A DNA stretch of 64,000 bases from Patescibacteria group bacterium (lineage in GTDB: Bacteria > Patescibacteriota > Patescibacteriia > SG8-24). Location of the stretch: positions 4,296 to 68,295 of the forward strand of contig JBAYFM010000007.1 of NCBI GenBank assembly GCA_041667185.1. The letters are read 5' to 3'. Numbering within the stretch: position 1 is the stretch's first letter; each line of letters begins with the position of its first letter. Below the pieces are notes generated by a model, which made no database searches, was not told where the DNA came from, and worked only from the letters and a program-made list of their open reading frames with translations. Of the stretch, positions 16,701-39,649 are shown piece after piece. The translations under genes and the position numbers were made by a program.

Positions 16701-16957
16701 TGGAGAATCATGGCACTTTCATTCGTTTCAGTATCAAGGATACCGGCGTCGGCATACCTAAAGCAGAGCAGCTCCGGATATTCTCCCGTTTCTACCGAGC
16801 TTCAAACGCCCCGACCATGCTGCCGAACGCCTCGGGACTCAACCTCTCCATCGCCAAATACTTCATAGAACAGCACGGCGGACAAATCGGTTTCGAAAGC
16901 CGCGATGGCCAAGGTTCAACTTTCTGGTTCGAATTGCCGCTGGTAGAAAACAGATGA
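10799..16957 (+). CDS. Giant cytoplasmic multi-PAS/GAF sensor histidine kinase (2052 aa), no receiver domain
   Basis: Many PAS-like repeats, HisKA H-box (QIVSHQLRTPLTAIRW), HATPase_c (DTGVGIP...GLNLSIAKYFIEQHGGQI...GSTFWFELP); AT-rich promoter region upstream. Confidence 0.85.
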   Translation: MSKRPLQVKKQPQLAALTAKKTDDIVFCAESTGKIIFANKAMIKTLGYTETELLAKNLQDIDLTLSTQAQQRLWTELKKSGSKVVSSSYRRRDGSVIPVEISTNLFRHGTSEYLCGIARDLSGHLAAMADLEMKALMLDSIADSIFLLQPDGDIVYANATACQEHGYTCAELIGQNIKILHEKKDLPQVTKGLSNLSAKGGQASFSGFHLRKDGTPLPIDVNSRAIKIGDKPFILSVVRNATEHRQLQRTLEQEKLRFRQYFDLAATLLISLDPNGLILAANREACRILGYARETDLIGLNWFENFVPKNIREPLADYQRKLIADRADSDERINMIVTRHGKERLIAWRNTTLNGPDGMPTMTISSGRDITNEQAAHSELHLRSQALDLVGESVFIHDLNGKIIFVNREACLERGYRPGELIGRNIGTDIDAPESSALLKTRIKKLLKTGESSFEVQHRRRDGSIFPASIHARIIKIGGVDMVLSSVRDISESREMENALRNEREKFKNYFELASIILVALDLKGHISAINRRGAELFGQTPEKMVGLEWPQISLSKETQLKMREYLQKLLAGQVQTTDEEINIATPSGERLIAWRSSLLRDKHGQILGILGSGLDVTERRRLENETAAKNRALEVVNRGADAIMRATNEQKLLTEVCDIICRIGGYRLAWIGRKLADKNQTIEAAASAGAERDYTVNLGVSWGNNKLGQTPIGLALRSGRRQIALDLLKNDAFKPWSDRIKQHNLTADLALPIKIGDKVELALAIYSNEADPFNQNEIELLERLAANLAFGITNLRTRLAQQEAERTGRELAEKYGFIMENANDVFYWIAADGRIITISPGTKRYALDADQMVGHSFLEYAWDEDREWVAKDFVALLRDKNTHTIKWRIRDGHGQPVWMETVSRVVPTDKPNKPAVVGVLRDITERHNAEMEKARYDAIHRLLTELSSLILSTTVSKVDTVIDKIIARVGVFAGVDRTYVVTLSEQDTPLASIREWRAAGIRPITDKIEGLPSDKTPLWVQQLLNGETLIVNDSGKIPANQAAEKTLSTMQEARSYVGLSLKSRGSVIGFVGMSTVRTQRTWSEADLFLLEQLANNITGLLEWSRAQKKTTESEQRFRELSDLAPQAIIELDLQGRLAYCNKAGLKMMGYDHEPSRTLTIADLIAPSDLAKVSKNIGLRLEDKINTGNEYLGRRQDGSTIPILAYTSPIIKNGKPVGLRGVIFDLTDIKKTEAHRDYLATFPGNNPSPIIEFNLDGAITYLNPAASRLLTPLRVGLNIHEVLPEVESILNENAPETTAVEVVRNNSWYLALTSRSDQYSGIRLYMMDITSLKQLEAKLTESERRYRAILENTSDVIYSTDLKGIITYVSPQAAQFGFDPEKIIGHTLLEFISPEDRELVTKEFERAITSRHGFALPTLQFRLVNPEGKIYWVEENGRAVVDPKKGATGAFGVMRDITERKKNEDLIVKKTVAEKLISNISTEFLKAATENFDPIVNNGLNKLARLTNADCAKIYLISDDSKRLIERFIANEDDAAGHERREFQLTDFPWISSNFNRRDVIQVSDINQLPSEARPELKRLCNERLTSTIFTPILAGYRVIGLVGFSTYKGIYTWPPEDAILLKMFADIYANAHVRRETERSRLRRSEAEKIITDLTVKFASVEESELNRVSSTALEKIALFAGAERAAFAKFGPQRTNLSWIQEYHRPNLSPIIATMQNLPLAPGDWLFGEIDSDTTATLTDISHLSANVDARTIRVSPEIGAFAAAPIKQGGRAIGFIGLYATGPKYWSEDETNLLTNLGKIIGDALEKAAANAKVREADLLRRKFVQIVSHQLRTPLTAIRWNLEALLTDEVGKLQPEQKSIIRLAHESEVEVISRLGQMLTALDIEEGRALLNPEPMALDALWDSVRSSLIPRCASKELTLTYKPPSKPLPAIKADPEKIREVLTTLADNAIAYTNNGGSIEARLENHGTFIRFSIKDTGVGIPKAEQLRIFSRFYRASNAPTMLPNASGLNLSIAKYFIEQHGGQIGFESRDGQGSTFWFELPLVENR

Positions 16958-21107: not shown

Positions 21108-24100
21108 TCACCCGGCCAGCGGCAGCTCGAACCAGAAAGTGCTGCCTTTACCTTCCTGGCTTTCATACCCCATCTTGCCACCGTGCGCTTCGATGACGCT
21201 CTTGGCGATATGAAGTCCGATACCGGATCCTTCAGGTTTGATGATAGCGGCGTTGCTAAAACGGTGAAAACGCCGGAACAACTGCTCTTGCTCGCCAGTC
21301 GGAATGCCGATGCCGGTATCGGTGACCTCCACGCGCACCGTCTTCTGTTCCTTTTTGATCCGAGTAGTGATCCGACCGCCTTCGGGCGTATAGCTGATGG
21401 CATTATCCAAGAGCCGCCCGAACAGATCCCGGAACTTCTCCTGATCAACATTTACCGTGCTGATTTGGTCATCACTATACGTATGTTCATGCGTGATTTT
21501 TTTGAGTTCGAACTTTTGTTTATTGTTCGCGCAAACCGAACGTACCAGATCTTCAAGAATGATTTTTTCCGGCTCCAACCGCAGGCGTCCGGCTTCGATA
21601 TCCATGACCAAAAGCAGGTCCGCGATGCGACCAACCGCTTCTTTATTGGCCTCAAGAGACATCCTCAAGATCTGCCGCTGGCTGCCGGTCAGCGGCCCCA
21701 TTTTATCGGATAAAACCTGTTCCAGCCCCCAACGAACCGAGCTCAATGGCGTACGCATCTGCTGAGACACGACCTGCACGAATTTATTCTTGATAGTATC
21801 AAGTTCGTAGGCGTGCTCTTCAGCGACTTTGCGTTCGTGGATATTGCGAACCACGCCGATCGTGCCGGCTAATTTATTGTCGGAATTTTTATAATGCGAA
21901 CCAGACGCCTCCACCCAGACGAATTGCCCATCCCGGCGTCTGAACCGCAAACTGAACGGTTTGAATACGCCGGTCTTCATGAACTCCGACCAATTAACCC
22001 GAGCCCGCTCCAGATCTTCCTCGAAGAAAAACTCCGCGGACACGAACTCCGTGAAGCTACGTCCGATCAGATCGCTTTCCTTATAACCATACATGCTGAC
22101 CTGCGGACTGATATAAGTCAGGACGCCAGATGGATCGGCGGCATAAATGATATCCTGGGTGTTCTCAATGAAATTGCGGTATTTCTCCTCGCTGGCCCGC
22201 AAGGCGCTCTCCGCCTCAACCCGAGCCGTCACATCCTCGATGACGCCATCAAAATATTCTTTGTCGATCTCATTCTTTTTCAATACGGCAGTCACCGCGC
22301 CCCAGATCTTGCGACCCTTGAGCGTCTTGAGCCGGACAACCTCGCTCTTAACGAAACCGAGTTTCTTGATCTTTTCGCTGATCAAAAGACGATCGGCGGG
22401 GTCAACATAAAGATCGGAGACGCTGATCTTCAGCAACTCTTCTTTCGAATCGGCTTCGAACATCGCCACCATCGCCGGATTCACTTCGATGAAACTGCCT
22501 TTGGGTCCGGGCGTATTGCGATAAATGCAAACCGGCAAGCTATTGAACAATTCGACAAACCGCTGGCGCGCTTCAGTAAATTTGTGCTCAACCCGACGAC
22601 GGTCAGTAATATCCTGGACGATCCCGGACAAGACGCTGATCTTGCCGGCGGCATCGCGGATAAATTCAAAAGCCTCGGCCCAAACCGTGAAAACAGCGCC
22701 GTCAGGATGAACGATGCGATACTCCATCGGCATCGGCTGCGCCTTCTCAATCACGGAACGATTGGCGACCTCAACCCGCATGCGATCGTCAGGATGGATA
22801 GCTGCGGTCATTACATCAGTCAACCGACCCGTAAATTTGGCTTTGTCGATGCCGAAAATCCGGTACATCTCGTCCGACCACTCAAGCTTATCGGCTTGGA
22901 CATGCCAGCGCCAACTGCCGATCTTGGCGAACTTCTGAGCCTGGCGCAGGTCGGCTTCCGAACGACGAATCTGTTCATGCACCCTCTTAACTTCAGCCTC
23001 ACTCTCCTGTTGATCGGTGACATCCTCGGCAATCGTCAGCAGCAGCCTTCGTTCGCCCACCGTAACCGGCTCGGTCGTGAGCCGACAAATGCGGCGACTG
23101 CCACCTTTCTGCCATATGACCGTATCCATGCCATGCGCACGGCCGGAAATACGCAGGGTCTCGACCACCCGCTGGCGATCTTCAGCGCTTACAATCCCTA
23201 ATTTGACTTCCGTCTGGCCAAGAACCTCGTCACGGGAATACCCGGTGATGCGCGTAAAAGCCTCGTTGACCTCGATGAACTCACCCCCATCAACGGTCGC
23301 CAGCGTCATCATGAGCGGCGCGGTGTTGAACGCCTGCATGAACATCTTAGCCTGTTGCTCGCGTTCAGAAAGGTCGCGCAAAAATGCGTGACATCTGAAC
23401 CGGCCATGCACCTCGAACGACGACAGCGTAACCTCGGCCAAAAAATCCTGGCCGCCCATCCGCCGATGCATCCACTCGAACCGAAAAAATTTAAGCTTCA
23501 AAGCGCGATCAACCGCTTCCCGCGCGGCCGTTTGCGAATCCTGTCCGCTGGGCTGCTGCAATGGCGAGATTTCGTCGGGGCGCCTGCCAATGATCTGCGT
23601 CCGTTCTGTCGTGCCGAACATCTTCAAGGTGGCATCATTGCAATCGACAATGGTCATGCCATCCAGAAGGATAAAAGCCTCCTGAGAACCCTCGAATACC
23701 TGGCGATAGGCCATTTCGCTCTCGCGCAAATCTTTTTCCACCTGGCGTTGCCGGATGATCTTGAACAAAGTAGCGGCTACCAGCTGGACCTGGGCAATAT
23801 CGCGCTCGTTATACGGTTTCTGCTTGTTTCCGACCCCGAAAAGGATCCGAAAACTTTCATTCTCGAACGTCGGCACGCTCATGAGGCGCTTCAGTTCGAC
23901 ATGGCCGCTCGGGAACCCTTTGCGGTTGGGCGAAGCGGCGAAATCATTGTAGATTACCGGCTTCTTTTGCCGCATCGCGTCCATCCAGTTGCCGGCCGAT
24001 TCGATCGGACGATGGCCGACATCAGGAGCCCGACAGCTCTTCAACGCCTCTTTATTCCAAGTATTCAGAATTATCTCCTTTTGGCCATCGATCACCAGAT

Positions 24101-25085
24101 GGAAGAAACCGACAGCGCTGTCAGTCAGCCGTACCACGCGATCAAGAACGAACTCATAAAGTTCCTGATCCGACATCTTGGCCGCCCGGCCGTAAACATC
24201 GAGGAGGAAAGACTCCCGCTCCGCCTCCTTGATCAAAACAAGTTCAGCCGTCCGCTGCGCCGTGATATCCTGGATCATCGTCAGGAAATAAAGCGGCTGG
24301 CCGGAAGCGTCGCGAATAAGGTTGACGTGGGTTGAAGCCCAGATTTCCTGACCCGACTTGGTCAAATAACGTTTGACCGTGTTGTACTCCCGTAACGTCC
24401 CCTTGAGGAGATCGCCGATACCCTGGCGATTAGCGGCAATATGATCGGGATGCGTGATATCCGCGTACGTCAGTTTCAACAGTTCCGACTCGGAGCGGCC
24501 GACGATCTCGCAGAACTTCCGGTTGACGCGAATGAATTTAAAATCCAGTCCGGACAGCACGATACCGACAGTAGCCTCTTCGAAGATGCGGCGAAATCTC
24601 TCCTCGCTCGATCGCAGATTTTCCTCGATTCGCTGGCGTTCAGTGATGTCGCGCGGCACGAAACGAATCATCTTCCGACCGCATTCGTCGTAGACATTAG
24701 CATCGACTTCAACCGGAATAAGCTCTCCTTTGTGGGTCTTGAGGCTTCGAGCAGCCTGGTGCAATACTCCCTCGCGGATAAAATCGGCGAATTCCGCCTT
24801 ATCAGCGAACAAGGTGCGGAGACAACACTGTTTGTCCCAAAGACTACGGCCCACGGCATCTTTTCGCTGGCAACCGGACATTTTTTCAAAACTGACGTTG
24901 ATATCCTCAATCCGCGCCGTGTCTGCATCAACGATCGCGATGCCAGACTGAGCGGTATTAAAAACTAACCGATACCGATCAGCACACTCGGCCAACAAAC
25001 CCGTAGCGGCGGATTGCGCATGATTGACCGCCGCTGTTGTCGTTTTATTTTCCGGGGCGCCGTTGCGCTTGAATAGGGACAACAT
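21108..25085 (-). CDS. Cytoplasmic multi-PAS sensor histidine kinase (1325 aa), no receiver domain
   Basis: At least 6 PAS-like repeats, H-box (QVVSQQMRTPLSSVRW), HATPase_c (DTGIGIP...GSGIGLHIAKSVIEAHGGK...GSTFWFELP). Confidence 0.85.
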   Translation of the reverse strand: MLSLFKRNGAPENKTTTAAVNHAQSAATGLLAECADRYRLVFNTAQSGIAIVDADTARIEDINVSFEKMSGCQRKDAVGRSLWDKQCCLRTLFADKAEFADFIREGVLHQAARSLKTHKGELIPVEVDANVYDECGRKMIRFVPRDITERQRIEENLRSSEERFRRIFEEATVGIVLSGLDFKFIRVNRKFCEIVGRSESELLKLTYADITHPDHIAANRQGIGDLLKGTLREYNTVKRYLTKSGQEIWASTHVNLIRDASGQPLYFLTMIQDITAQRTAELVLIKEAERESFLLDVYGRAAKMSDQELYEFVLDRVVRLTDSAVGFFHLVIDGQKEIILNTWNKEALKSCRAPDVGHRPIESAGNWMDAMRQKKPVIYNDFAASPNRKGFPSGHVELKRLMSVPTFENESFRILFGVGNKQKPYNERDIAQVQLVAATLFKIIRQRQVEKDLRESEMAYRQVFEGSQEAFILLDGMTIVDCNDATLKMFGTTERTQIIGRRPDEISPLQQPSGQDSQTAAREAVDRALKLKFFRFEWMHRRMGGQDFLAEVTLSSFEVHGRFRCHAFLRDLSEREQQAKMFMQAFNTAPLMMTLATVDGGEFIEVNEAFTRITGYSRDEVLGQTEVKLGIVSAEDRQRVVETLRISGRAHGMDTVIWQKGGSRRICRLTTEPVTVGERRLLLTIAEDVTDQQESEAEVKRVHEQIRRSEADLRQAQKFAKIGSWRWHVQADKLEWSDEMYRIFGIDKAKFTGRLTDVMTAAIHPDDRMRVEVANRSVIEKAQPMPMEYRIVHPDGAVFTVWAEAFEFIRDAAGKISVLSGIVQDITDRRRVEHKFTEARQRFVELFNSLPVCIYRNTPGPKGSFIEVNPAMVAMFEADSKEELLKISVSDLYVDPADRLLISEKIKKLGFVKSEVVRLKTLKGRKIWGAVTAVLKKNEIDKEYFDGVIEDVTARVEAESALRASEEKYRNFIENTQDIIYAADPSGVLTYISPQVSMYGYKESDLIGRSFTEFVSAEFFFEEDLERARVNWSEFMKTGVFKPFSLRFRRRDGQFVWVEASGSHYKNSDNKLAGTIGVVRNIHERKVAEEHAYELDTIKNKFVQVVSQQMRTPLSSVRWGLEQVLSDKMGPLTGSQRQILRMSLEANKEAVGRIADLLLVMDIEAGRLRLEPEKIILEDLVRSVCANNKQKFELKKITHEHTYSDDQISTVNVDQEKFRDLFGRLLDNAISYTPEGGRITTRIKKEQKTVRVEVTDTGIGIPTGEQEQLFRRFHRFSNAAIIKPEGSGIGLHIAKSVIEAHGGKMGYESQEGKGSTFWFELPLAG

Positions 25086-27489: not shown

Positions 27490-28266
27490 ATGACCAACCC
27501 TCAAAGATCGACGTTCCCTGAATCGCTGAGCAAACTTTTGAAACATTCCCTGCTCGACCGAGAAGAGGAGCTTCGACTCATCCGCCGGGCCCAGCAAGGC
27601 GACCGCCAGGCGCTCGATTCGCTCGTGCACCACAACCTCAAATTAGTGATGCGCGTGGCCGGGCGCTATGCCCGACGCTACGCCGACTACAACGTCGAAC
27701 TGCAAGACTTGTTCAGCGAAGGTGTGATCGGTCTGCACAAGGCCATCATGAAATTCGATGCCGCTCGCGGCGCGAATCTGAACACCTACGCCGACTACTG
27801 GATAAAACAAGTGATCGGCCGCTATCTGGCGAACCAGCGCTACCTGATCCGCGTGCCGATCAACGCTCAGCAGAACCTGCGGGATGAGGAGGCGGGAAAC
27901 GGCAAAAAAGGTCTCACTAAAACCGACCTCCGCAACTTCTCTGCCGTCTCGCTCGACCAGGAAATTTCCTCCAACGACGCCGGCAACCAAAACGGCTGCA
28001 CGCTCGCCGATATCTGCGTAGACGGACGTGAAACGACGTCATCGGAAACCGCTGTCGCGCGCTCCGAAGTTGCAGCCATCCTCGCCGAAGCATTCGGCCA
28101 GCTCACGCCACGAGAACAGGACATCATCAAAAAACGTTTTTGTGATGAACTGTCCCAGAACCAGGTCTCGGATATCTGCGGCCTGACGCGCATGCGCGTC
28201 CGCTGGATCGAAGCCAAGGCGCTCGGCAAACTCCGGTGCCTGCTCCAAGACAAGGACATCTTCTGA
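27490..28266 (+). CDS. Sigma-70 family RNA polymerase sigma factor (group 3-like, 258 aa), paralog 1
   Basis: Region 2 (DLFSEGVIGLHKAIMKFD...TYADYWIKQVIGRYL) and region 4.2 (VRWIEAKALGKLR). Confidence 0.85.
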   Translation: MTNPQRSTFPESLSKLLKHSLLDREEELRLIRRAQQGDRQALDSLVHHNLKLVMRVAGRYARRYADYNVELQDLFSEGVIGLHKAIMKFDAARGANLNTYADYWIKQVIGRYLANQRYLIRVPINAQQNLRDEEAGNGKKGLTKTDLRNFSAVSLDQEISSNDAGNQNGCTLADICVDGRETTSSETAVARSEVAAILAEAFGQLTPREQDIIKKRFCDELSQNQVSDICGLTRMRVRWIEAKALGKLRCLLQDKDIF

Positions 28267-28273
28267 ATCTGAC

Positions 28274-28304
28274 GCGGCCGAGCCCAGCTCGACCGCGTTT
28301 TCTT
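28274..28304 (+). terminator. Terminator after sigma paralog 1
   Basis: GCGGCCGAG-CCCAG-CTCGACCGC + GTTTTCTT; homologous hairpin follows each paralog. Confidence 0.45.
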
Positions 28305-28361
28305 ATCAAAAGCCACAATTTTAAGGTCCCGCCACGGACTGATGACAAACAGTCGCCCAGC

Positions 28362-28390
28362 TTGACCAAAGACGAGAAACGCGCTACATT
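28362..28390 (+). promoter_or_regulatory. sigma70-type promoter TTGACC-N17-TACATT for sigma paralog 2
   Basis: Hexamers and spacing read directly. Confidence 0.5.
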
Positions 28391-28394
28391 ATGC

Positions 28395-28500
28395 GGTCCT
28401 GCCGTACGGAGAGACGGAGAGACGAAGTCATGTCGCTTGCGAGCGACGTGGCCGGAGTCAGCGAAATATCAGCGGACTTTGTATCTTCGCTACTCCCTGA
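28395..28500. repeat. Composite repeat copy inside the sigma paralog 2 leader (core CATGTCGCTTGCGAGCGACGTGG at 28429-28451)
   Basis: GGAGAGACGGAGAGACGAAG + palindrome + GGAGTCAGCG...CTCCCTGACTTC; lies between conserved leader blocks GCGGTCCTGCC and GTAGGACC. Confidence 0.7.
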
Positions 28501-28548
28501 CTTCTCAACAATGTAGGACCTCGCCCTTTACAATCAGGAGAACACGCC

Positions 28549-29316
28549 ATGACCGATCATCAAGGATCGCCGATCTCTGAATCGCTGAGCAAATTATTGC
28601 GTCATTCCATGCTCGATCGGGAAGAGGAACTCCGACTCATCGGCCGGTCTCAGCAAGGCGACCGCCAGGCCCTCGACTCGCTCGTGCGCCACAATCTCAA
28701 GTTCGTGATGAGCATCGCCAAGCGCTATGCCGGCCGCGGCGTCGAACTCGAGGATCTGTTCAGCGAAGGCGCCATCGGCCTGCAGATAGCCATCAAGAAA
28801 TTCGACGTCACGAGCGGTAATCGGCTCAGCACCTACGCCATCTGGTGGATCCGGCAGCTGATCGCCCGCTACCTGGATGATCATTGCCGCACGATCCGCG
28901 TACCGATCAGAGTCCAAAAGAACCTGCGCGACGAGGAATCGGCAGAAGAAAACGACAACCGCCTCACCAAGGCCGGCCTCGACAACTTCTCGCCCGTCTC
29001 GCTCGACCAGGAACTGTCGTCCGGCGACGATTCCAACCAGAACGGATGCACGCTCGCCGATACCTGCGCGGACGAATGCAAAACAGCGTCGCCAGAAACA
29101 GCCGTCGCTCGCGCCGAGGTCTCGGACATCATCACTGAGGCGATCAGCCAGCTCACGCCCCGAGAACAATACGTCATCGTAAAACGTTTTCGCGAAGAGC
29201 TGACCCTGCGCAATATCGCCGGAACCCACACTCTGTCACGCGAGCGCATTCGCCAGATCGAAGCCAAGGCGCTCGGCAAACTCCGGCGTCTGCTCCAAAA
29301 CAAGGACATCTTCTGA
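28549..29316 (+). CDS. Sigma-70 family sigma factor, paralog 2 (255 aa)
   Basis: Collinear with paralog 1 (about 65% identical by eye); region 4.2 RIRQIEAKALGKLR. Confidence 0.85.
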   Translation: MTDHQGSPISESLSKLLRHSMLDREEELRLIGRSQQGDRQALDSLVRHNLKFVMSIAKRYAGRGVELEDLFSEGAIGLQIAIKKFDVTSGNRLSTYAIWWIRQLIARYLDDHCRTIRVPIRVQKNLRDEESAEENDNRLTKAGLDNFSPVSLDQELSSGDDSNQNGCTLADTCADECKTASPETAVARAEVSDIITEAISQLTPREQYVIVKRFREELTLRNIAGTHTLSRERIRQIEAKALGKLRRLLQNKDIF

Positions 29317-29323
29317 CCCGCAC

Positions 29324-29352
29324 GCGGTCGAGCTCAGCTCGACCGCTTTTTC
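29324..29352 (+). terminator. Terminator after sigma paralog 2
   Basis: GCGGTCGAGC-TCA-GCTCGACCGC + TTTTTC (perfect 10-bp stem). Confidence 0.55.
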
Positions 29353-29410
29353 TTATCAAAATCCGTAATTTAAGGCTCCAAATAAGGCTAGTGGCGCACA
29401 GCCGCCAAGC

Positions 29411-29439
29411 TTGACAAAAAACGTAAAATAAGCTATATT
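29411..29439 (+). promoter_or_regulatory. sigma70-type promoter TTGACA-N17-TATATT for paralog 3
   Basis: Hexamers and spacing read directly. Confidence 0.5.
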
Positions 29440-29491
29440 ATACGGTCCCGCCAGTAACGGGATGAAGCTCTTTTCCAACCAGGAGATCATC

Positions 29492-29824
29492 ATGTCCAAT
29501 CACGAACAAGAAATGCTTGAGGTTTCGTTCGACGACAACACCTACCAGCTCGAATGCGCGCTCGCCGATACCGGCGCGGACGAACGCTACGCCGCGTCGT
29601 CGCCCGAAACCGCCGTCGCCCGCTCTGAAGCTGAGGTCATCGTCACCAAGGCGCTCAACAGACTCACGCCTCGGGAACAGAGCATCATCGTCAAGCGCTT
29701 CTGGGGCGACCTGGACCAGCGCGAGATCTCCAAGATCTACGGCATGACGTACGCAAACATCGACAAGATCGAAGCCCAGGCGTTCGACAAACTCCGTCAG
29801 CATCTTTCGAGAGACCTCTTCTGA
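29492..29824 (+). CDS. Sigma-70 region-4-only paralog (110 aa): decayed third copy, pseudogene or sigma-region-4 mimic
   Basis: Retains only SPETAVARSE...LTPREQSIIVKRF...IDKIEAQAFDKLR (region 4); intact RBS AGGAG and same promoter/terminator design as paralogs 1-2. Confidence 0.55.
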   Translation: MSNHEQEMLEVSFDDNTYQLECALADTGADERYAASSPETAVARSEAEVIVTKALNRLTPREQSIIVKRFWGDLDQREISKIYGMTYANIDKIEAQAFDKLRQHLSRDLF

Positions 29825-30664: not shown

Positions 30665-30761
30665 TGAAATCAGCCAGGAAGCCCGGCCGACTTGCCAAGA
30701 CGCCGACGGCTAAGTAGGATGCGGCCAGAAGCAGTTCCTTGCCAAAACAAAGGAGCGAATC

Positions 30762-31502
30762 ATGACGGACCGCGCCGTTCGAATCGACCTTGCCACTGAC
30801 GCCATCGTGAACATCGACCTCCAGCCGACTTTCATGCCCGGCGGCGGACTGCCGGTTGCCGGCGGCGACGAGATCATCCCGCTCGTCCAACGCCTCAACC
30901 TGCTGTTCCCGCCCAGACAGCGCTACGCGACCCTCGACAAGCATCCGCGAGGCCACATCTCGCTCGCCAGTTCGTACAAAGGCCTGGCTCCATATTCCCA
31001 GCTCACAGCCGCCGAGGTCGCGAGCTGGACGGCAGCCGATAATCGGTTCGCCGCCGGCGCCCACTTCCGTCTCCCCGATCTGCAGAGCTATCTGGCTCAG
31101 GTCAAAACCCAGACGCTCTGGCCGGACCACGGCCTCATCGGCACGCCTGAGTCCGAACTGCATCCCGACCTGGTCCGCCGCGACTACCGGTTCGTCCTGA
31201 TCAAAGGGACCAACCCGAGGTGCGACTCCTACTCCGGCCTGCGCGATAATCTGCGGCATCCGACCGGACTGGGCGAGCTGCTGCACGTGGACGGAGTGAA
31301 GCGTATTTTCCTCACCGGCCTGGCCCTCGACTTCTGCGTCGGCTTCACCGCTCTCGACGCCCGGGACTACGGCTTCGAGGTCTTCGTCATCGAGGACGCC
31401 ACGCGCGCGGTCGCGCTGCCGGGCACCGTCGAGGCCATGAGAGCGGCTTTTCTCAAAGCCGGCGTCCGGCTCATCCAGTCGGAAGACCTCATCGCTTTCT
31501 GA
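30762..31502 (+). CDS. pncA: Nicotinamidase/pyrazinamidase (isochorismatase family, PncA-like)
   Basis: IVNIDLQPTFMPGG (Asp), Lys in LIKGT, catalytic Cys in LALDFCVGFTALDA; RBS AAGGAG. Confidence 0.75.
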   Translation: MTDRAVRIDLATDAIVNIDLQPTFMPGGGLPVAGGDEIIPLVQRLNLLFPPRQRYATLDKHPRGHISLASSYKGLAPYSQLTAAEVASWTAADNRFAAGAHFRLPDLQSYLAQVKTQTLWPDHGLIGTPESELHPDLVRRDYRFVLIKGTNPRCDSYSGLRDNLRHPTGLGELLHVDGVKRIFLTGLALDFCVGFTALDARDYGFEVFVIEDATRAVALPGTVEAMRAAFLKAGVRLIQSEDLIAF

Positions 31503-31521
31503 CCACCGCTCCATCTCTACC

Positions 31522-31553
31522 AGGACGGACCCTTGCCGGGACCGTCCTTTTTC
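31522..31553 (+). terminator. Intrinsic terminator after pncA
   Basis: GGACGGACCCTTGCCGGGACCGTCC + TTTTTC. Confidence 0.5.
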
Positions 31554-31620
31554 TTCGACCGCTTTTCTTTTCTTTACTCGCTGCCCGCGGCCGAGTAACA
31601 TTCAGATTGAACTGGATCTT

Positions 31621-33003
31621 ATGAATAAAAAAATCGCCATCTTCGGCGGCAGCTTCAATCCCGCCGGCCGCCACCACCGCGCCGTCGCGGAAGCGCTCAG
31701 CCAGCACTTCGACGAGATCATCGTCGTGCCTTGCGGCCCGCGCCCGGACAAACCGATCGTGGTGGACATCGAACCAGTCCATCGCGCGGTCATGGCCGAC
31801 CTGGCTTTCCGCGGCCTGCCGAAGGTCCGCGTGGAACTTTTCGATCTGGAACTCGACACTTATACGCGCACCATTGACCTGGACCGGATGTTCAGCCGCG
31901 AAGGCGAGATCTGGCATGTGGTCGGCACGGACCTCGTCAAAGGCGGCCGCGCCAAAAATTCCGAGATCCACCACTGGGAACGCGGCCCGGAACTTTGGGA
32001 CAACGCCAATTTTGCCGTCATCCAGCGCGCCGGCTACGACATCGACCCGGCCGACCTGCCGCCGCACAGCCAGCTCTTCCGTTCCGAACACTCCAGTTCC
32101 AGCTCCGAGATCCGCGAACGGACCTTCAAGCGCCAGCCCATCTCCGATCTGGTCACGCCCGAGGTCGAGAGCTACATCAACCGCTACAACCTGTACCGCG
32201 GCACGACGCCGCAGCGTTCGGTCAGCCTGAAGCTCGACCCGCGCGCGCTCATCGTCGCCGACGACCGCAATCCGGTGGCGGTCGAACTCGCGACCTCCCT
32301 CCAGCGCCTCGAAGACGCGGCAAATCCCAACTGCATCATCGTGATCGGCGGCGACGGCACCATGATCCGCGCCATCCGCCGACACTGGCGCTTGCGGCTC
32401 CCGTTCATCGGACTGAACGCCGGCCACCGCGGTCACCTGCTGAACGACCTCGACAAGAACGGCGTCCCCGACGTCCTGGAATCGGAGAAACACGTCCACC
32501 AGCTGCCGCTCCTCTACTCCGAGGTCTTCGACGCGGACGGTGCGCTCGCCGACAGCAGCTACGCCGTGAACGACACCTGGGTCGAACGCGCGAGCGGCCA
32601 AGCGGCCTGGATCCAGGTCAAAGTGAACAACGAGATCAAGATCCCGAAACTCGTCGCTGATGGCGCGCTCGTCGCCACGGCTTCCGGCTCGACAGCCTAC
32701 GCCAAAGCCATGGGCGGCAAGCCGCTGCTCGTCGGCGCGCAGGAGATCACACTCGTCGGCTCGAACGTGACCGCGCCTTTCGGTTTCAAATCCGCCTCGC
32801 TGCCGCTCGACGCCGCGGTCGAATTCGAATCCCTGAATCCGCAGAAACGTCCGATCCGCGCCTTCGTCGACGGCCTGGAAAAAGGCGTCGTCTCCCGGGT
32901 GAAGACCCGCGTCAGCCGCATCGCTGCGGTCGAAGTGGCTTTCTCCCCCAAACGCGACATGGCCGCCAAATTGGCCGATTTCTTCTTCACCTCGGCCAGC
33001 TGA
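31621..33003 (+). CDS. nadD-nadK: Bifunctional nicotinate-nucleotide adenylyltransferase (NadD) - NAD kinase (NadK) fusion
   Basis: N-terminus GGSFNPAGRHH, YTRTIDL, SSSEIRER (NadD); C-terminus IIVIGGDGTMIRAIR, GLNAGHRGHLLN, DGALVATASGSTAYAKAMGG (NadK GGDGT / NxGxxGFL / DGxxxxTxxGSTAY motifs). Confidence 0.8.
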   Translation: MNKKIAIFGGSFNPAGRHHRAVAEALSQHFDEIIVVPCGPRPDKPIVVDIEPVHRAVMADLAFRGLPKVRVELFDLELDTYTRTIDLDRMFSREGEIWHVVGTDLVKGGRAKNSEIHHWERGPELWDNANFAVIQRAGYDIDPADLPPHSQLFRSEHSSSSSEIRERTFKRQPISDLVTPEVESYINRYNLYRGTTPQRSVSLKLDPRALIVADDRNPVAVELATSLQRLEDAANPNCIIVIGGDGTMIRAIRRHWRLRLPFIGLNAGHRGHLLNDLDKNGVPDVLESEKHVHQLPLLYSEVFDADGALADSSYAVNDTWVERASGQAAWIQVKVNNEIKIPKLVADGALVATASGSTAYAKAMGGKPLLVGAQEITLVGSNVTAPFGFKSASLPLDAAVEFESLNPQKRPIRAFVDGLEKGVVSRVKTRVSRIAAVEVAFSPKRDMAAKLADFFFTSAS

Positions 33004-33101
33004 CGACGATAGCCGGCCGGCAGCGCTTGACAAAAGCGCTGATTTTTATTTAATTTAAGCCGTTCTTTGACAACGCATCCGCACCAGCATAGGAGGCCGC
33101 G

Positions 33102-34355
33102 ATGATCATCAAATCGCTACTCGATCTCGACTACTACAAACTGACCATGGCCCAGGTGGCCTGGCGGCATTTCTTTCATCGCGTTCCGGTGACCTACAGT
33201 TTCACCAACCGGACCCAAAAAGTCCGCTTGGCGGACCACATCGCCGAAGCCGACCTGCGGCGCGAACTCGACGCCGCGCGCGAACTGCGGTTCACGCCCA
33301 AAGAGCTCGGCTATCTCTCCAGACTCGGACCTTTCCAGCCGGACTTCCTCCAATTCCTGCGTACGTTCACATTGCCGCCCTACGACCTCGCGTTAACGGA
33401 CGGGCAATTCCGGATCGAGGTTTCCGGACCCTGGCACGAGGCCATCTTCTGGGAGACACTGATCCTCTCGATCGTGAACGAGCTGTACTACGCCAGCCTG
33501 ACCACCGGTCCTGACGCGACGAGCGGTCGCAGTCGGCTGTGCCTCGCGCATCTTGAAGGATGGCGTCGACTGGACGAAAAGATCCGGCGTCTCGAACAGC
33601 ATCCGGACATCCGTTTCATCGAGTTCGGCACGCGCCGCCGCTTCAGCCGCGCCTGGCAGGAAATGGCCGCGGTCAAACTCGCCACGCGCATCCCGCAGCA
33701 GATGATCGGCACCTCGAACGTGGACCTGGCCCGCCGTCTCGGCCTCCAGCCGATCGGCACCTTCGCCCACGAGATGTTCATGGTCTTCTCCGGCATCTAC
33801 CGCGGCGCGGGATACTCCGGCTTCTTCGCGGATGAAGACGAGGCCATCCGCTCGTCGCACAATGCCGTCCTGCAATGCTGGTGGCGCAACTACGGCGAGG
33901 CGCTCTCGATCGCGCTGACCGACACGTTCGGCACCGGTTTCTTCTTCCGCGATTTCACTCCCGAACAGGCAGCCAAGTGGCGCGGCCTGCGGCAGGACTC
34001 CGGCGACCCCTTCGTCTTCGGTGAAACCGCGATCGAGTTCTATCGGAACCTGGGGATCGACCCCCGGACCAAGACGATCGTCTTCAGCGACGGACTGGAT
34101 CTCGATCTGATCGAGTCGCTGCAAGCGGTCTTCGGCAGCCGCATCAAGACCGCCTTCGGTTGGGGTACGAACCTCACGAACGATTGCGGCCCCGATCCAC
34201 TCTCGCTCGTGGTCAAAGTGACTGGCGTGAACGGCTACCCGACCGTGAAACTCTCGGACAACCTCGCCAAGGCGATGGGGCCATCCGACGAAGTCGAACA
34301 TTTCAAACGGATCTTCGGTTACGAAGGCGGCACCAACGAAGAATGTCGCTACTGA
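33102..34355 (+). CDS. pncB: Nicotinate phosphoribosyltransferase
   Basis: MIIKSLLDLDYYKLTMAQ N-terminus and overall collinearity with PncB; RBS AGGAGG. Confidence 0.85.
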   Translation: MIIKSLLDLDYYKLTMAQVAWRHFFHRVPVTYSFTNRTQKVRLADHIAEADLRRELDAARELRFTPKELGYLSRLGPFQPDFLQFLRTFTLPPYDLALTDGQFRIEVSGPWHEAIFWETLILSIVNELYYASLTTGPDATSGRSRLCLAHLEGWRRLDEKIRRLEQHPDIRFIEFGTRRRFSRAWQEMAAVKLATRIPQQMIGTSNVDLARRLGLQPIGTFAHEMFMVFSGIYRGAGYSGFFADEDEAIRSSHNAVLQCWWRNYGEALSIALTDTFGTGFFFRDFTPEQAAKWRGLRQDSGDPFVFGETAIEFYRNLGIDPRTKTIVFSDGLDLDLIESLQAVFGSRIKTAFGWGTNLTNDCGPDPLSLVVKVTGVNGYPTVKLSDNLAKAMGPSDEVEHFKRIFGYEGGTNEECRY

Positions 34356-34376: not shown

Positions 34377-34407
34377 AGAGGCGCGCACCCCGCGCCTCTT
34401 TTTTTTA
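34377..34407 (+). terminator. Intrinsic terminator after pncB
   Basis: GAGGCGCGCACCCCGCGCCTC + T8. Confidence 0.7.
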
Positions 34408-34509
34408 CTCCGCCACGTCGCTCGCAAACGAAGTGACGGAGTCAGGGAGATACGGAGACGGAGTTTGGGAGAGTGCAGGAGTGGAGGAGTCGGGGAGACC
34501 CGACGCAAA
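34408..34509. repeat. Composite repeat copy (degenerate core CCACGTCGCTCGCAAACGAAGTGACGG; GACGGAG, GAGTGCAGGAGTGGAGGAG, GGGGAGACCCGAC blocks)
   Basis: Shares blocks with the 1863-2045 copy. Confidence 0.7.
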
Positions 34510-34589
34510 CTCCCGCACTTCAGCACTCCCGCACTTCAGCACTCCCGCACTTCAGCACTCCCGCACTTCAGCACTCCCGCACTTCCGCC
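34510..34589. repeat. Minisatellite: 16-bp unit CTCCCGCACTTCAGCA x5
   Basis: Five perfect tandem units read directly, about 60 bp upstream of the 16S P1 promoter. Confidence 0.9.
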
Positions 34590-34647: not shown

Positions 34648-34676
34648 TTGACATGTTTCGCCTCTTACCCTATACT
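34648..34676 (+). promoter_or_regulatory. rRNA promoter P1 candidate TTGACA-N17-TATACT
   Basis: Consensus-like hexamers about 280 nt upstream of the 16S 5' end. Confidence 0.5.
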
Positions 34677-34747: not shown

Positions 34748-34776
34748 TTGACGCATATCGCGACTTGGCCTAAAAT
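34748..34776 (+). promoter_or_regulatory. rRNA promoter P2 candidate TTGACG-N17-TAAAAT
   Basis: Second tandem promoter about 100 bp downstream of P1, as in classical rrn P1/P2. Confidence 0.5.
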
Positions 34777-34948: not shown

Positions 34949-36456
<1,508 letters not shown>

Positions 36457-38603: not shown

Positions 38604-38680
38604 GGGCGTATAGCTCAGTTGGTTAGAGCGTCACACTGATAATGTGAAGGTCGATGGTTCGAATCCATCTACGCCCACCA
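38604..38680 (+). tRNA. tRNA-Ile (anticodon GAT), CCA encoded
   Basis: GGGCGTATAGCTCAGTTGGTTAGAGCG...CTGATAA anticodon loop...GGTTCGAATCC T-arm...TACGCCCACCA. Confidence 0.9.
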
Positions 38681-38798
38681 GAGAGATTAAAATGTTTGCC
38701 GATTATTGCGAGGCAAGCGCGGAAACCGCAGGTTGGCAAGCCGCCTGTTCAAAGGCTTACGCGACCATAATTTCTCGAGAGCGTGTCGGTCCAAAATT

Positions 38799-39332
38799 AT
38801 GCCCATCACTGAACTGGACGTTGTGATTCGTCTGGTCGTCATCACGGCCATTTCCGGATTCATCGGCCTGGAACGCGAGTATCACGCCAAGCCGGCCGGA
38901 CTCCGCACCAACATCATGGTGGGTCTTGGTTCGACCGTCATGACAATTGCCGGCCTCAGAGCCGTTGATCTGTTCGTCAACGCTCCCGTCGACCCGACCC
39001 GTATCGCCGGCCAGGTCATCACTGGCATCGGCTTCATCGGCGCTGGAGCGATCCTCCGACCGTCCGGCCGCGGTGTCAGCAATGTCGTCGGCCTCACGAC
39101 CGCCGCGACCTTGTGGGTGGTGAGTGGACTAGGCATTGCTGTGGGTATGGGTCTGTATTTAGAAGCCCTGCTCGCAACCCTCCTGGTTTTCTTCACTTTC
39201 TTCGTCCTGGGCAGAATGGTCACTTACATCCGCCGGCATTCCAAGAACTACCCGACGGACATCAAGGCTCACGAAGAGGCGGATGAAAAGACGAACCATG
39301 ACAATGAGGATCCATCAGGACGGGAATCATGA
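38799..39332 (+). CDS. mgtC: MgtC/SapB family membrane protein
   Basis: MPITELDVVIRLVVITAISGFIGLEREYHAKPAGLRTNIMVGLGSTVMT matches the MgtC N-terminal domain; listed longer ORF start is non-coding. Confidence 0.75.
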   Translation: MPITELDVVIRLVVITAISGFIGLEREYHAKPAGLRTNIMVGLGSTVMTIAGLRAVDLFVNAPVDPTRIAGQVITGIGFIGAGAILRPSGRGVSNVVGLTTAATLWVVSGLGIAVGMGLYLEALLATLLVFFTFFVLGRMVTYIRRHSKNYPTDIKAHEEADEKTNHDNEDPSGRES

Positions 39333-39362
39333 GACAGCGGAAGTAAATCGGTTTTCCGTGAC

Positions 39363-39437
39363 GCCGAGGTAGCTCAGTGGTAGAGCAGAGGACTGAAAAT
39401 CCTCGTGTCGCCAGTTCAATCCTGGCCCTCGGCACCA
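39363..39437 (+). tRNA. tRNA-Phe (anticodon GAA), CCA encoded
   Basis: GCCGAGGTAGCTCAGTGGTAGAGC...CTGAAAA loop...GTTCAATCC...CCTCGGCACCA. Confidence 0.9.
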
Positions 39438-39470
39438 CGGAAAGCCGATTTTTTGATAAGATGACGTCAT

Positions 39471-39546
39471 CGGGGCGTGGCCTAATGGCTAAGGCACTTG
39501 CTTTGGGAGCAAGGGATTGAGAGTTCGAGTCTCTCCGCCCCGACCA
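39471..39546 (+). tRNA. tRNA-Pro (anticodon TGG), CCA encoded
   Basis: CGGGGCG acceptor, anticodon stem CTTGC/GCAAG with loop TTTGGGA, T-arm GTTCGAGTC, 3' CGCCCCGACCA. Confidence 0.85.
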
Positions 39547-39573
39547 AATTTCATATGAATATCGGTTTCATCT

Positions 39574-39649
<76 letters not shown>

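What the first reader, a model, noticed from the sequence alone, without database searches (positions are those of the whole stretch)
30762..34355. Compact NAD salvage cluster with an unusual NadD-NadK fusion protein
pncA (nicotinamidase), a 460-aa ORF and pncB (nicotinate phosphoribosyltransferase) are adjacent and co-oriented. The 460-aa ORF has an N-terminal half that is NadD-like (GGSFNPAGRHH, YTRTIDL, SSSEIRER). Its C-terminal half has the NAD kinase motifs GGDGT, GLNAGHRGHLLN and DGALVATASGSTAY. A single polypeptide would thus carry out NaMN to NaAD and NAD to NADP. The intervening NadE step is not encoded here, unless the NMNAT half is NadM-like and accepts NMN directly. I do not recall a NadD-NadK fusion as a described architecture.
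Basis: partly seen in the sequence, partly recalled or inferred. Interest (0 to 1): 0.55.

Follow-up and report, generated by a model that had tools for sequence, protein, structure and literature searches.

The report
Fused NadD–NAD kinase in salvage cluster
A candidate-phyla-radiation bacterium has a three-gene vitamin-B3 salvage cluster whose middle gene joins an NAD-building enzyme (NadD) to NAD kinase in one protein; this fusion is real and common in uncultured bacteria, but I found no paper describing it.

Summary
pncA (30762-31502), a 460-aa ORF (31621-33003) and pncB (33102-34355) are adjacent and co-oriented.

**The fusion.** Residues 1-195 are a NadD-type nucleotidyltransferase by HMM and predicted fold. 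Residues ~197-460 are a short-type NAD kinase with all kinase motifs.

**It is not an artefact.**
- The identical ORF occurs in three contigs from three data sources.
- More than 220 full-length homologues (33-84% identity) were collected, and at least 399 metagenome loci encode a relative.

**The host.** RpoB in the same window places it in Patescibacteria (Uhrbacteria/Parcubacteria-like).

**The "missing" NadE.** Close relatives have nrtR-pncA-fusion-pncB-nadE, sometimes with pnuC and a NadR-type NMNAT. This window lacks nadE and nrtR.

**The NadD half** is a distinct subfamily. The canonical HxGH motif is replaced by an invariant GxHH. The same subfamily occurs as a stand-alone gene next to nadE in Parcubacteria, which argues that it is an active NaMN adenylyltransferase.

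**Most likely function:** a bifunctional NaMN adenylyltransferase/NAD kinase of the Preiss-Handler salvage route.

**Status:** no paper found in five full-text searches; databases name it only "NAD kinase". It is a new domain architecture of known enzymes, of modest interest. No enzyme activity was tested.

The parts
30692..30720 (+). sigma-70-type promoter-like site (TTGCCA-17-TAGGAT), 42 bp upstream of pncA
   Evidence: 9 of 12 matches. This is a consensus match only, not shown to be functional.
30762..31502 (+). pncA, nicotinamidase (nicotinamide -> nicotinate), 246 aa
   Evidence: Pfam Isochorismatase 58.5 bits. NCBIfam PRK11609, E = 6.8e-33 but below the cut-off. Aligns to nicotinamidase 2wt9 at E = 6e-33, with catalytic D/K/C and the metal site conserved.
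31522..31548 (+). hairpin followed by a U-tract after pncA (terminator-like)
   Evidence: -17.3 kcal/mol, z = -3.4. Analogous hairpin + T-run sequences lie after pncA in L006, L094 and L095.
31621..32205 (+). N-terminal half of the fusion (aa 1-195): NadD-type NaMN adenylyltransferase domain of a GxHH subfamily
   Evidence: HMMs; PDB sequence hits are NadD structures; AF2 model pLDDT 94.3 and Foldseek top 50 all NadD. Motifs: GGSFNPAGRHH, PCGPRPDK, SSSEIR.
31666..31677 (+). codons for G16-R17-H18-H19: the variant of the (H/T)xGH nucleotidyltransferase motif
   Evidence: Aligned to PHNGH of B. subtilis NadD 1kam. The xxHH form occurs in 180 of 225 full-length family members.
32209..33003 (+). 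C-terminal half of the fusion (aa ~197-460, plus stop): short-type NAD kinase domain
   Evidence: NCBIfam PRK04761 132.8 bits, aa 231-451. PDB hits 1y3h/1yt5. Foldseek TMt 0.73-0.79 to NAD kinases. GGDGT, NxGxxGxL, ND and DGxLxxTxxGSTAY are conserved.
32347..32361 (+). codons for GGDGT (aa 243-247), the NAD-kinase catalytic motif
   Evidence: Invariant in alignment A1. GGDG is present in 224 of 225 family members.
33021..33041 (+). hairpin followed by a U-tract after the fusion gene (terminator-like)
   Evidence: (-13.5 kcal/mol, z = -2.8).
33102..34355 (+). pncB, nicotinate phosphoribosyltransferase, 417 aa
   Evidence: NCBIfam PRK05321 433.5 bits (cut-off 379) and TIGR01514 356.9 bits (cut-off 269.55). 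Pfam NAPRTase_N and NAPRTase.
34377..34399 (+). strong intrinsic-terminator-like hairpin that closes the cluster
   Evidence: (-16.6 kcal/mol, z = -6.5, followed by eight U).

Best explanation
The 460-aa protein is most likely a bifunctional enzyme. Its N-terminal NadD-type domain would adenylylate nicotinate mononucleotide (NaMN + ATP -> NaAD + PPi). Its C-terminal short-type NAD kinase domain would phosphorylate NAD to NADP.

It sits between pncA (nicotinamide -> nicotinate) and pncB (nicotinate -> NaMN), in a self-contained Preiss-Handler salvage cluster of a Patescibacteria (CPR) genome. The intervening amidation step (NaAD -> NAD, by NadE) must be encoded elsewhere in this genome. In close relatives nadE is the next gene after pncB and the whole cluster is preceded by nrtR.

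The two fused activities are therefore not consecutive. I infer that the fusion gives fixed stoichiometry and co-expression of two housekeeping steps, and possibly lets NAD(P) status sensed by one domain influence the other.

**Shown:** domain identity, motif conservation, predicted folds, the reality and breadth of the fusion, and the gene context.
**Inferred:** the catalytic activities, the NaMN preference, and any cross-talk between the domains.
For: **Domains and folds**
- Domain HMMs cover both halves.
- PDB sequence hits split cleanly: NadD structures for aa 1-196 and NAD kinases for aa 204-451.
- The AF2 whole-protein model has pLDDT 90.6 and pTM 0.90, and its Foldseek top 50 are all NAD kinases.
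- The N-half model has pLDDT 94.3, and its top 50 are all NadD structures, TM 0.75-0.84.

**Conservation**
- Both halves are under purifying selection in 35 diverse homologues, with 58 invariant columns spread over both.
- In 225 full-length members GGDG is kept in 224. The adenylyltransferase motif is xxHH in 180 and canonical HxxH/TxxH in 25. GxHH is therefore most simply read as a derived state of a genuine (H/T)xxH enzyme; no phylogeny was built.

**Gene context**
- nrtR-pncA-fusion-pncB-nadE, in that order, in L006/L007, L013, L014/L094, L021 and L055, with partial copies on the short contigs L015 and L024.
- L095 has nrtR-pncA-fusion-nudix-pncB-prs-nadE.
- L094 adds pnuC and a NadR-type NMNAT+RNK. 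NMN adenylylation is thus already covered there, and the fusion is the only NaMN adenylyltransferase and the only NAD kinase candidate in that cluster.

**Stand-alone relatives**
- ~200-aa GxHH NadD proteins exist as stand-alone-only clades.
- In Parcubacteria contigs one lies immediately upstream of nadE, in a cluster with nrtR and pncA, and with pncB nearby on L101.

**Triple fusions**
- In P0180 and P0194 a canonical NadD domain (above the TIGR00482 cut-off) is fused in front, and the internal NadD-like domain has lost its His motif. This is consistent with displacement of the same function.
Against: - No enzymology exists, and none can be done here.
- The canonical first His of HxGH is Gly, and PPHK is RPDK. 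Activity of this variant has not been shown for any member.
- All NCBIfam equivalog scores are below their curated cut-offs (80 vs 112 for NadD; 133 vs 211 for NadK).
- About 10 of 225 family members lack the last His of the motif, so the N-domain can apparently be dispensable for catalysis in some lineages.
- I could not check whether this genome also has separate nadD or nadK genes outside the window.
- Terminator-like hairpins follow each of the three genes, so a single transcript is not established.
- About 55 of 80 related loci have no NAD genes nearby. That fits a housekeeping gene but gives no functional support.
Confidence: 0.7

Rival explanations
1. The protein is essentially only an NAD kinase. 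The NadD-like half would be a catalytically dead pseudo-enzyme that serves as a dinucleotide-binding regulatory or scaffolding domain.
For: - The non-canonical GxHH and RPDK motifs.
- Sub-threshold NadD equivalog scores.
- NCBI names the protein only 'NAD(+)/NADH kinase'.
- About 10 of 225 members lack the final His.
- Triple fusions carry a canonical NadD in front of a degenerate NadD-like domain.
- The PDB holds M. tuberculosis NadD-NADP complexes (4s1o, 4ybr, 5das), showing that NadD folds can bind NADP.
Against: - H18-H19, PCGPRPDK and GSSxxIR are invariant or nearly so in the main clade.
- The same GxHH subfamily occurs as a stand-alone gene directly upstream of nadE, in clusters with pncA and nrtR that show no other NadD.
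- Salvage operons of relatives have no other NaMN adenylyltransferase within +/-10 kb.
- Distant members keep canonical HxGH/TxxH.
Confidence: 0.12
2. The adenylyltransferase half accepts NMN, alone or as well as NaMN. The single chain would then perform two consecutive steps, NMN -> NAD -> NADP, bypassing NadE.
For: - nadE is absent from the window.
- The closest relative, L011 (84% identity), has pnuC, a nicotinamide riboside transporter, right after the fusion.
- From my own recall rather than a tool result, the GSFNP start of the motif resembles eukaryotic dual-specificity NMNATs.
- An E. faecium NadD-NMN complex exists in the PDB (9fyb).
Against: - The N-half matches NadD models and structures, not NadM or NadR models.
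- It is flanked by pncA and pncB, which produce NaMN.
- Relatives have nadE in the same cluster.
- L094 has a separate NadR-type NMNAT next to pnuC.
Confidence: 0.15
3. The fusion is an assembly or sequencing artefact that joins two adjacent genes.
For: None found. A few ~200-aa 'stand-alone' N-halves are 80-99% identical to fused genes and are probably themselves fragments or frameshifted copies.
Against: - The identical 460-aa product is encoded on three contigs from three data sources.
- More than 120 clusters at 48-84% identity and 96-100% coverage.
- More than 100 representatives at the 50% identity level.
- At least 399 metagenome loci.
- The junction segment (LYRG...EPRxLxVxDERNP) is conserved.
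Confidence: 0.01
4. The C-terminal half is a diacylglycerol- or sphingosine-kinase-like lipid kinase rather than an NAD kinase.
For: From general knowledge, those families share the GGDG fold family.
Against: - No DAGK family reached E <= 0.01 in Pfam.
- All 25 NCBIfam hits shown for the whole protein are NAD kinase or NadD models, and every hit covering the C-half is an NAD kinase.
- The Foldseek top 50 are all NAD(H) kinases.
- The NADK-specific ND and GSTAY motifs are conserved.
Confidence: 0.01

Closest known systems
Stand-alone bacterial NadD (for example B. subtilis NaMNAT, PDB 1kam/1kaq; TIGR00482)
   Same: Same fold (TM 0.80-0.84). The GxFxP start of the motif, the last His, and the ISSTxxR-like SSSEIR motif are shared. 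It has the same genomic partners (pncB, nadE).
   Different: About 25-27% identity. HxGH is replaced by GxHH and PPHK by RPDK. It scores below the equivalog cut-off. Here it is fused to a kinase.
Short-type NAD kinase (NCBIfam PRK04761, ~257 aa) and solved NadK/PpnK structures (M. tuberculosis 1y3h, T. maritima 1yt5)
   Same: GGDGT, NxGxxGxL, ND and DGxLxxTxxGSTAY motifs, and the two-domain fold.
   Different: 132.8 bits against a cut-off of 211. It has an N-terminal NadD domain instead of a free N-terminus. Stand-alone relatives of ~265 aa exist at 43-53% identity.
NadR (enterobacterial HTH-NMNAT-ribosylnicotinamide kinase)
   Same: A pyridine-nucleotide adenylyltransferase fused to a kinase in one chain, and part of NAD salvage. 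A NadR-type gene even lies in the related operon L094.
   Different: A different adenylyltransferase subfamily (TIGR01526). Its kinase is a P-loop RNK acting upstream (NR -> NMN), not an NAD kinase.
NadM-Nudix bifunctional NMNAT/ADP-ribose pyrophosphatase (NCBIfam PRK05379)
   Same: A known precedent for fusing an NAD adenylyltransferase to a second NAD-metabolic activity.
   Different: The adenylyltransferase is archaeal-type NadM and the partner is a Nudix hydrolase. The fusion itself showed no match to these models; only the NrtR of L094 matched their Nudix part.
Archaeal bifunctional NADP phosphatase/NAD kinase (NCBIfam PRK14076)
   Same: A precedent for NAD kinase fused to another enzyme of the NAD(P) pool. 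Its kinase part is weakly matched (E = 1.6e-10).
   Different: The partner is an inositol-monophosphatase-like NADP phosphatase, not an adenylyltransferase.

Membership tests
NadD / NaMN adenylyltransferase (PF01467 superfamily; TIGR00482) | Rossmann-like nucleotidyltransferase fold superimposable on solved NadD | tested here: met
   N-half AF2 model pLDDT 94.3. The Foldseek top 50 are all NadD, TM 0.75-0.84, rmsd 2.5-3.9.
NadD / NaMN adenylyltransferase (PF01467 superfamily; TIGR00482) | Canonical (H/T)xGH ATP-binding motif | tested here: not met
   PAGRHH aligns to PPHNGH of 1kam: the first His is Gly, the Gly is His, and the last His is kept. The xxHH form is found in 180 of 225 family members, and 25 distant members keep HxxH/TxxH.
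NadD / NaMN adenylyltransferase (PF01467 superfamily; TIGR00482) | ISSTxxR-type second motif | tested here: met
   SSSEIR at aa 160-165. G159, S161 and R165 are at least 90% conserved.
NadD / NaMN adenylyltransferase (PF01467 superfamily; TIGR00482) | Score above the curated family threshold | tested here: inconclusive
   Pfam CTP_transf_like 32.9 bits against a cut-off of 21: met. NCBIfam equivalog TIGR00482 80.2 bits against 112.45: not met.
NadD / NaMN adenylyltransferase (PF01467 superfamily; TIGR00482) | Catalyses NaMN + ATP -> NaAD, with a preference for NaMN over NMN | not testable with these tools
   Only context evidence is available: the position between pncA and pncB, nadE adjacent in relatives, and a stand-alone GxHH homologue next to nadE.
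NAD kinase (PF01513 / PF20143; PRK04761) | GGDG catalytic motif | tested here: met
   GGDGT at aa 243-247, invariant in A1. Present in 224 of 225 members.
NAD kinase (PF01513 / PF20143; PRK04761) | NADK-specific NE/D motif and Gly-rich (T)xxGSTAY motif | tested here: met
   VNDT at aa 316-319 and DGALVATASGSTAY at aa 347-360. Both are conserved across the family.
NAD kinase (PF01513 / PF20143; PRK04761) | Two-domain NAD kinase fold | tested here: met
   Foldseek E = 2.5e-19 to 1y3h, TMt 0.79. The top 50 are all NAD(H) kinases.
NAD kinase (PF01513 / PF20143; PRK04761) | Score above the curated family threshold | tested here: inconclusive
   Pfam NAD_kinase 32.4 bits against 25.5: met. NAD_kinase_C 21.3 bits against 23.7: not met. 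NCBIfam PRK04761 132.8 bits against 211: not met.
NAD kinase (PF01513 / PF20143; PRK04761) | Phosphorylates NAD(H) using ATP or polyphosphate | not testable with these tools
PncA nicotinamidase | Asp-Lys-Cys catalytic triad and D-x-H...H metal site | tested here: met
   Alignment to 2wt9: IDlQ/VDvQ, DkHPrgH/DwHPdnH, KG...DSYS and DFCV. The NCBIfam equivalog score is below its cut-off (114.3 vs 174).
PncB nicotinate phosphoribosyltransferase | Score above the curated family threshold, over the full length | tested here: met
   PRK05321 433.5 bits (cut-off 379), aa 1-409. TIGR01514 356.9 bits (cut-off 269.55).
NrtR-controlled NAD regulon | An nrtR gene and its palindromic operator at the cluster | tested here: not met
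   No NrtR homologue in the window at E <= 1e-8. TAGTGTA-N5-TACACTA gives only two unrelated 3-mismatch hits. Both features are present in relatives.
Diacylglycerol/sphingosine kinase-like lipid kinases | Match to DAGK catalytic-domain models or structures | tested here: not met
   No such family at E <= 0.01, and none among the Foldseek top 50.

The most novel reading that the evidence does not exclude
The fusion may be more than co-expression of two housekeeping enzymes; it could be a functional coupling. I see two forms this could take.

1. The kinase domain, or the NADP it makes, allosterically gates the NadD domain, so that flux into the whole NAD pool is set by NADP(H) status. Solved M. 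tuberculosis NadD-NADP complexes show that NadD folds can bind NADP.
2. The kinase acts on the NadD product NaAD to give NaADP (NAADP), which is then amidated. That would be an alternative order of steps to NADP.

Either would be a new regulatory or pathway logic for NAD(P) homeostasis in reduced-genome bacteria.
Probability: 0.1. Interest if true: 0.65.

Novelty: new variant of a known kind. Interest (0 to 1): 0.38.

Why it matters
NadD and NAD kinase are both essential in the bacteria studied so far (general knowledge). A natural single-chain NadD-NadK would matter in four ways:

- It is a previously undiscussed way of organising NAD(P) synthesis, and it is widespread in uncultured Patescibacteria, Acidobacteriota, Planctomycetota and Verrucomicrobiota.
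- It defines a NadD subfamily with a rearranged catalytic signature (GxHH), which tests assumptions about the (H/T)xGH motif.
- It corrects annotation. The fusion is currently named only "NAD kinase", and that name has been transferred to ~200-aa stand-alone NadD proteins.
- It helps metabolic reconstruction of CPR genomes, where a "missing nadD" may be hidden in a gene labelled NAD kinase.

The finding is incremental: both activities and the salvage pathway are textbook.

Tried and rejected
- **Genome-collection scan with the single protein.** I therefore have no species-level distribution.
- **Regex motif census.** It was too strict (63 sequences scored 'none'). I replaced it with an alignment-based census.
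- **NrtR operator in the window.** None was found, so NrtR control of this particular cluster is rejected.
- **nadE, nrtR or a canonical nadD elsewhere in the 64 kb window.** None was found.
- **Viral contigs.** No full-length fusion, only separate halves at 24-33% identity. A phage NAD-reconstitution origin is rejected.
- **Is the stand-alone short NadK P0257 preceded by a NadD-like gene?** The upstream 411-aa ORF has no Pfam hit, and hhalign gives only 0.2% probability around a SANPLHFGH motif. This is inconclusive and was not used.
- **Is the stand-alone GxHH NadD P0255 next to a NadK?** It is not. It lies between smc and rpsP.
- **Literature.** Five full-text searches and a term search within the NrtR paper PMC2330246 gave no description of the fusion. 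Subscription-only reviews were not searchable.
- **Inter-domain geometry.** It could not be analysed because the model coordinates are not exposed.

Full report
**1.

All quoted motifs are present in the 460-aa translation.

Domain models split that protein in two:
- Pfam CTP_transf_like covers aa 7-167 and NCBIfam NadD TIGR00482 covers aa 7-192 (E = 1.9e-22).
- Pfam NAD_kinase and NAD_kinase_C cover the C-half, and NCBIfam NAD kinase PRK04761 covers aa 231-451 (E = 1.2e-38).
- The Pfam CTP_transf_like and NAD_kinase domain cut-offs are passed (NAD_kinase_C is just below its cut-off). The stricter NCBIfam equivalog cut-offs are not.

PncB is above its curated cut-off (433.5 vs 379 bits). PncA aligns to the Acinetobacter nicotinamidase 2wt9 (E = 6e-33), with the catalytic Asp, Lys and Cys and the metal-binding residues in place.

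**2. The fusion is real**

- The identical 460-aa product is encoded on three contigs from three data sources: 72 kb NCBI/JGI, 59.8 kb ENA and 3.8 kb Logan.
- The word-indexed search returned more than 120 clusters with 96-100% coverage at 48-84% identity.
- The exhaustive search of 50%-identity representatives gave 289 proteins at E <= 1e-30. More than 100 of these are full-length fusions, down to 33% identity.
- A metagenome scan found at least 399 loci that encode a relative.
- The junction segment (LYRG...EPRxLxVxDERNP) is itself conserved.
- No full-length copy occurs in viral contigs.

**3. Which organism**

The window carries a 16S rRNA gene, rpoB, rpoC, recA, ftsK and smc, so it is chromosomal. 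RpoB's nearest relatives (72-87% identity) that carry a taxon name are Patescibacteria: Uhrbacteria, Parcubacteria and Magasanikbacteria (one is labelled only 'bacterium'). That supports the NCBI label of the record.

Named homologues of the fusion at ~51-57% identity come from Acidobacteriota, Blastocatellia, Verrucomicrobiota, Planctomycetota and Patescibacteria/Parcubacteria MAGs.

**4. Both halves look like working enzymes**

In an alignment of 35 diverse homologues, 58 columns are invariant, and they are spread over both halves.

*Kinase half.* It keeps GGDGT, NxGxxGxL, ND and DGxLxxTxxGSTAY. GGDG is present in 224 of 225 full-length family members. The AF2 model is confident (pLDDT 90.6, pTM 0.90). 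Its 50 best PDB matches are all NAD(H) kinases, with TM-scores relative to the target of about 0.6-0.8.

*N-half.* Modelled with its stand-alone relatives it reaches pLDDT 94.3. Its 50 best PDB matches are all NadD/NaMNAT structures (TM 0.75-0.84).

**5. A twist in the NadD half**

Aligned to B. subtilis NadD, the canonical PPHNGH reads PAGRHH, and PPHK reads RPDK. The first His of (H/T)xGH is Gly, the Gly is His, and the last His is kept.

Across 225 full-length members the census is:

| State of the motif | Members | Note |
|---|---|---|
| xxHH | 180 | the main clade, including this window |
| HxxH or TxxH (canonical) | 25 | all at 33-49% identity to the window protein |
| only the last His | 5 | |
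| last His absent | 15 | 4 of these are N-terminally truncated, 1 more is a suspected alignment gap |

GxHH is therefore most simply read as a derived state within a genuine nucleotidyltransferase lineage (no tree was built). It is not a sign of a different family.

The same signature (GGSFNPPGxHHR, PCGPRPDK, GSSxEIR) is found in many ~200-aa stand-alone proteins. Some of these are probably fragments of fused genes (80-99% identical to them). Several clades, however, are stand-alone only.

**6. Gene context gives the function**

| Locus | Identity of its fusion to the window's | Gene order |
|---|---|---|
| L013, L014/L094 | 66% | nrtR-pncA-fusion-pncB-nadE |
| L006/L007, L021, L055 (partial copies on short contigs L015, L024) | 49-68% | the same order |
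| L094, additional genes | 66% | pnuC and a NadR-type NMNAT+RNK (TIGR01526, 194 bits) upstream of nrtR |
| L095 (Parcubacteria MAG) | 56-57% | nrtR-pncA-fusion-nudix-pncB-prs-nadE |
| L011 | 84% | pncA-fusion-pnuC |
| L100-L102 (Parcubacteria) | stand-alone GxHH NadD, 47% to the N-half | NadD directly upstream of nadE, in a cluster with nrtR and pncA; pncB nearby on L101 |

- In L094 each step of both salvage routes is represented once. The fusion is the only candidate there for NaMN adenylylation and for NAD phosphorylation.
- The L100-L102 arrangement is the strongest available argument that the GxHH domain is an active NaMN adenylyltransferase.
- About 55 of the 80 metagenome loci carry the fusion without NAD neighbours, as expected for a housekeeping gene.

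**7. Triple fusions**

P0180, P0194 and P0242 (~633-763 aa) carry a canonical NadD domain upstream of the NadD-like and NadK domains. That domain scores above the TIGR00482 cut-off and has HxGH intact. In P0180 and P0194 the internal domain has lost its His motif (PPSLSDR, PPTSAQV).

P0180 lies directly after nadE. This looks like replacement of the same activity inside the fusion. It indicates that what is retained across these lineages is the pairing of NadD and NadK activities on one chain.

**8. This window's cluster**

It is a trimmed version. trmD lies upstream and the 16S rRNA gene downstream. There is no nadE, nrtR or canonical nadD anywhere in the 64 kb.

A 19-bp palindrome, TAGTGTA-N5-TACACTA, overlaps the promoters of nrtR or pnuC in relatives. 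I read it as a candidate NrtR operator. It is absent here.

The cluster has a promoter-like site at 30692-30720. Stable hairpins with U-tracts follow pncA, the fusion and pncB. Co-transcription is therefore not established.

**9. Interpretation**

The best-supported reading (confidence ~0.7) is a bifunctional NaMN adenylyltransferase/NAD kinase serving the Preiss-Handler salvage route, with NadE encoded elsewhere in this genome. The two steps are not consecutive. The benefit is probably co-expression and fixed stoichiometry, and any allosteric coupling is speculative.

Rivals:
- A catalytically dead NadD-like domain (~0.12).
- NMN use, which would make the two steps consecutive (~0.15; this overlaps partly with the main reading).
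- An assembly artefact, or a lipid-kinase identity for the C-half. Both are refuted.

**10. Novelty**

Five full-text searches, and a term search within the NrtR regulon paper PMC2330246, found no description of a NadD-NadK fusion. Subscription-only literature was not searchable.

Automated annotation has half-noticed it. NCBI calls it 'NAD(+)/NADH kinase', while some IMG entries call it 'NAD kinase/nicotinic acid mononucleotide adenylyltransferase'. The kinase name has also leaked onto stand-alone NadD proteins.

I rate it a new variant (domain architecture) of known enzymes. It is of modest interest, and useful mainly for annotation and for metabolic reconstruction of CPR genomes.

Noticed in passing
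window 27490-29824: Three tandem sigma-70-family ORFs just upstream of trmD. Two are full-length paralogues (258 and 255 aa, with near-identical N-termini). The third is a 120-aa copy with region 4 only. A sigma70-trmD pairing also occurs next to the stand-alone GxHH NadD in L091.
   Followed up: partly
window 34950-36455 and 38604-39649: A complete 16S rRNA gene directly after the salvage cluster, with no 23S or 5S rRNA anywhere in the 64 kb. tRNA-Ile lies 2.1 kb downstream, past intervening ORFs, followed by tRNA-Phe, tRNA-Pro and tRNA-Gly. The rRNA genes therefore appear to be unlinked.
   Followed up: no
window 34509-34585: A perfect 16-bp tandem repeat (ACTCCCGCACTTCAGC, 4.8 copies). It lies between the pncB terminator and two strong promoter-like sites (34648-34676 and 34748-34776) ahead of the 16S gene. 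Its function is unknown.
   Followed up: no
window 10799-16957 (+) and 21108-25085 (-): Sensor histidine kinases of 2052 aa and 1325 aa with many PAS and GAF domains, together with 52-63% GC. Both are unusual for a genome whose RpoB is Uhrbacteria/Parcubacteria-like.
   Followed up: partly
L006 6380-6398; L094 6509-6527; L013 8207; L055 6685 and 7419; L011 2555; L012 1895; L016 482: A conserved 19-bp palindrome, TAGTGTA-N5-TACACTA, overlapping or next to promoters of nrtR or pnuC in relatives. I read it as a candidate NrtR operator for this lineage. It is absent near the window's cluster.
   Followed up: partly
P0180, P0194, P0242, P0172 (proteins): Longer architectures. The first three have a ~90-aa N-terminal segment, a canonical NadD, a degenerate NadD-like domain and NadK. 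P0172 has a CobT-like (DBI_PRT) N-terminal half fused to the NadD-like and NadK domains. P0180 lies directly downstream of nadE.
   Followed up: partly
P0416, P0420, P0411, P0434: Stand-alone NadD-like proteins of ~120-200 aa (P0434 is only 121 aa), some from Parcubacteria MAGs, are named 'inorganic polyphosphate/ATP-NAD kinase' or 'NAD+ kinase' in public records. This looks like annotation transferred from the fusion.
   Followed up: no
L097 695-2711: A stand-alone short NadK (P0257, 265 aa) overlaps by 17 bp an upstream 411-aa ORF that has no Pfam hit but contains a nucleotidyltransferase-like SANPLHFGH motif. It may be a split or very divergent version of the pairing.
   Followed up: partly
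window 31522-31548, 33021-33041, 34377-34399: Each of the three salvage genes is followed by its own stable hairpin and U-tract. Similar hairpins follow pncA in L006, L094 and L095. This raises the possibility of gene-by-gene termination, attenuation or mRNA stabilisation rather than a simple operon.
   Followed up: partly
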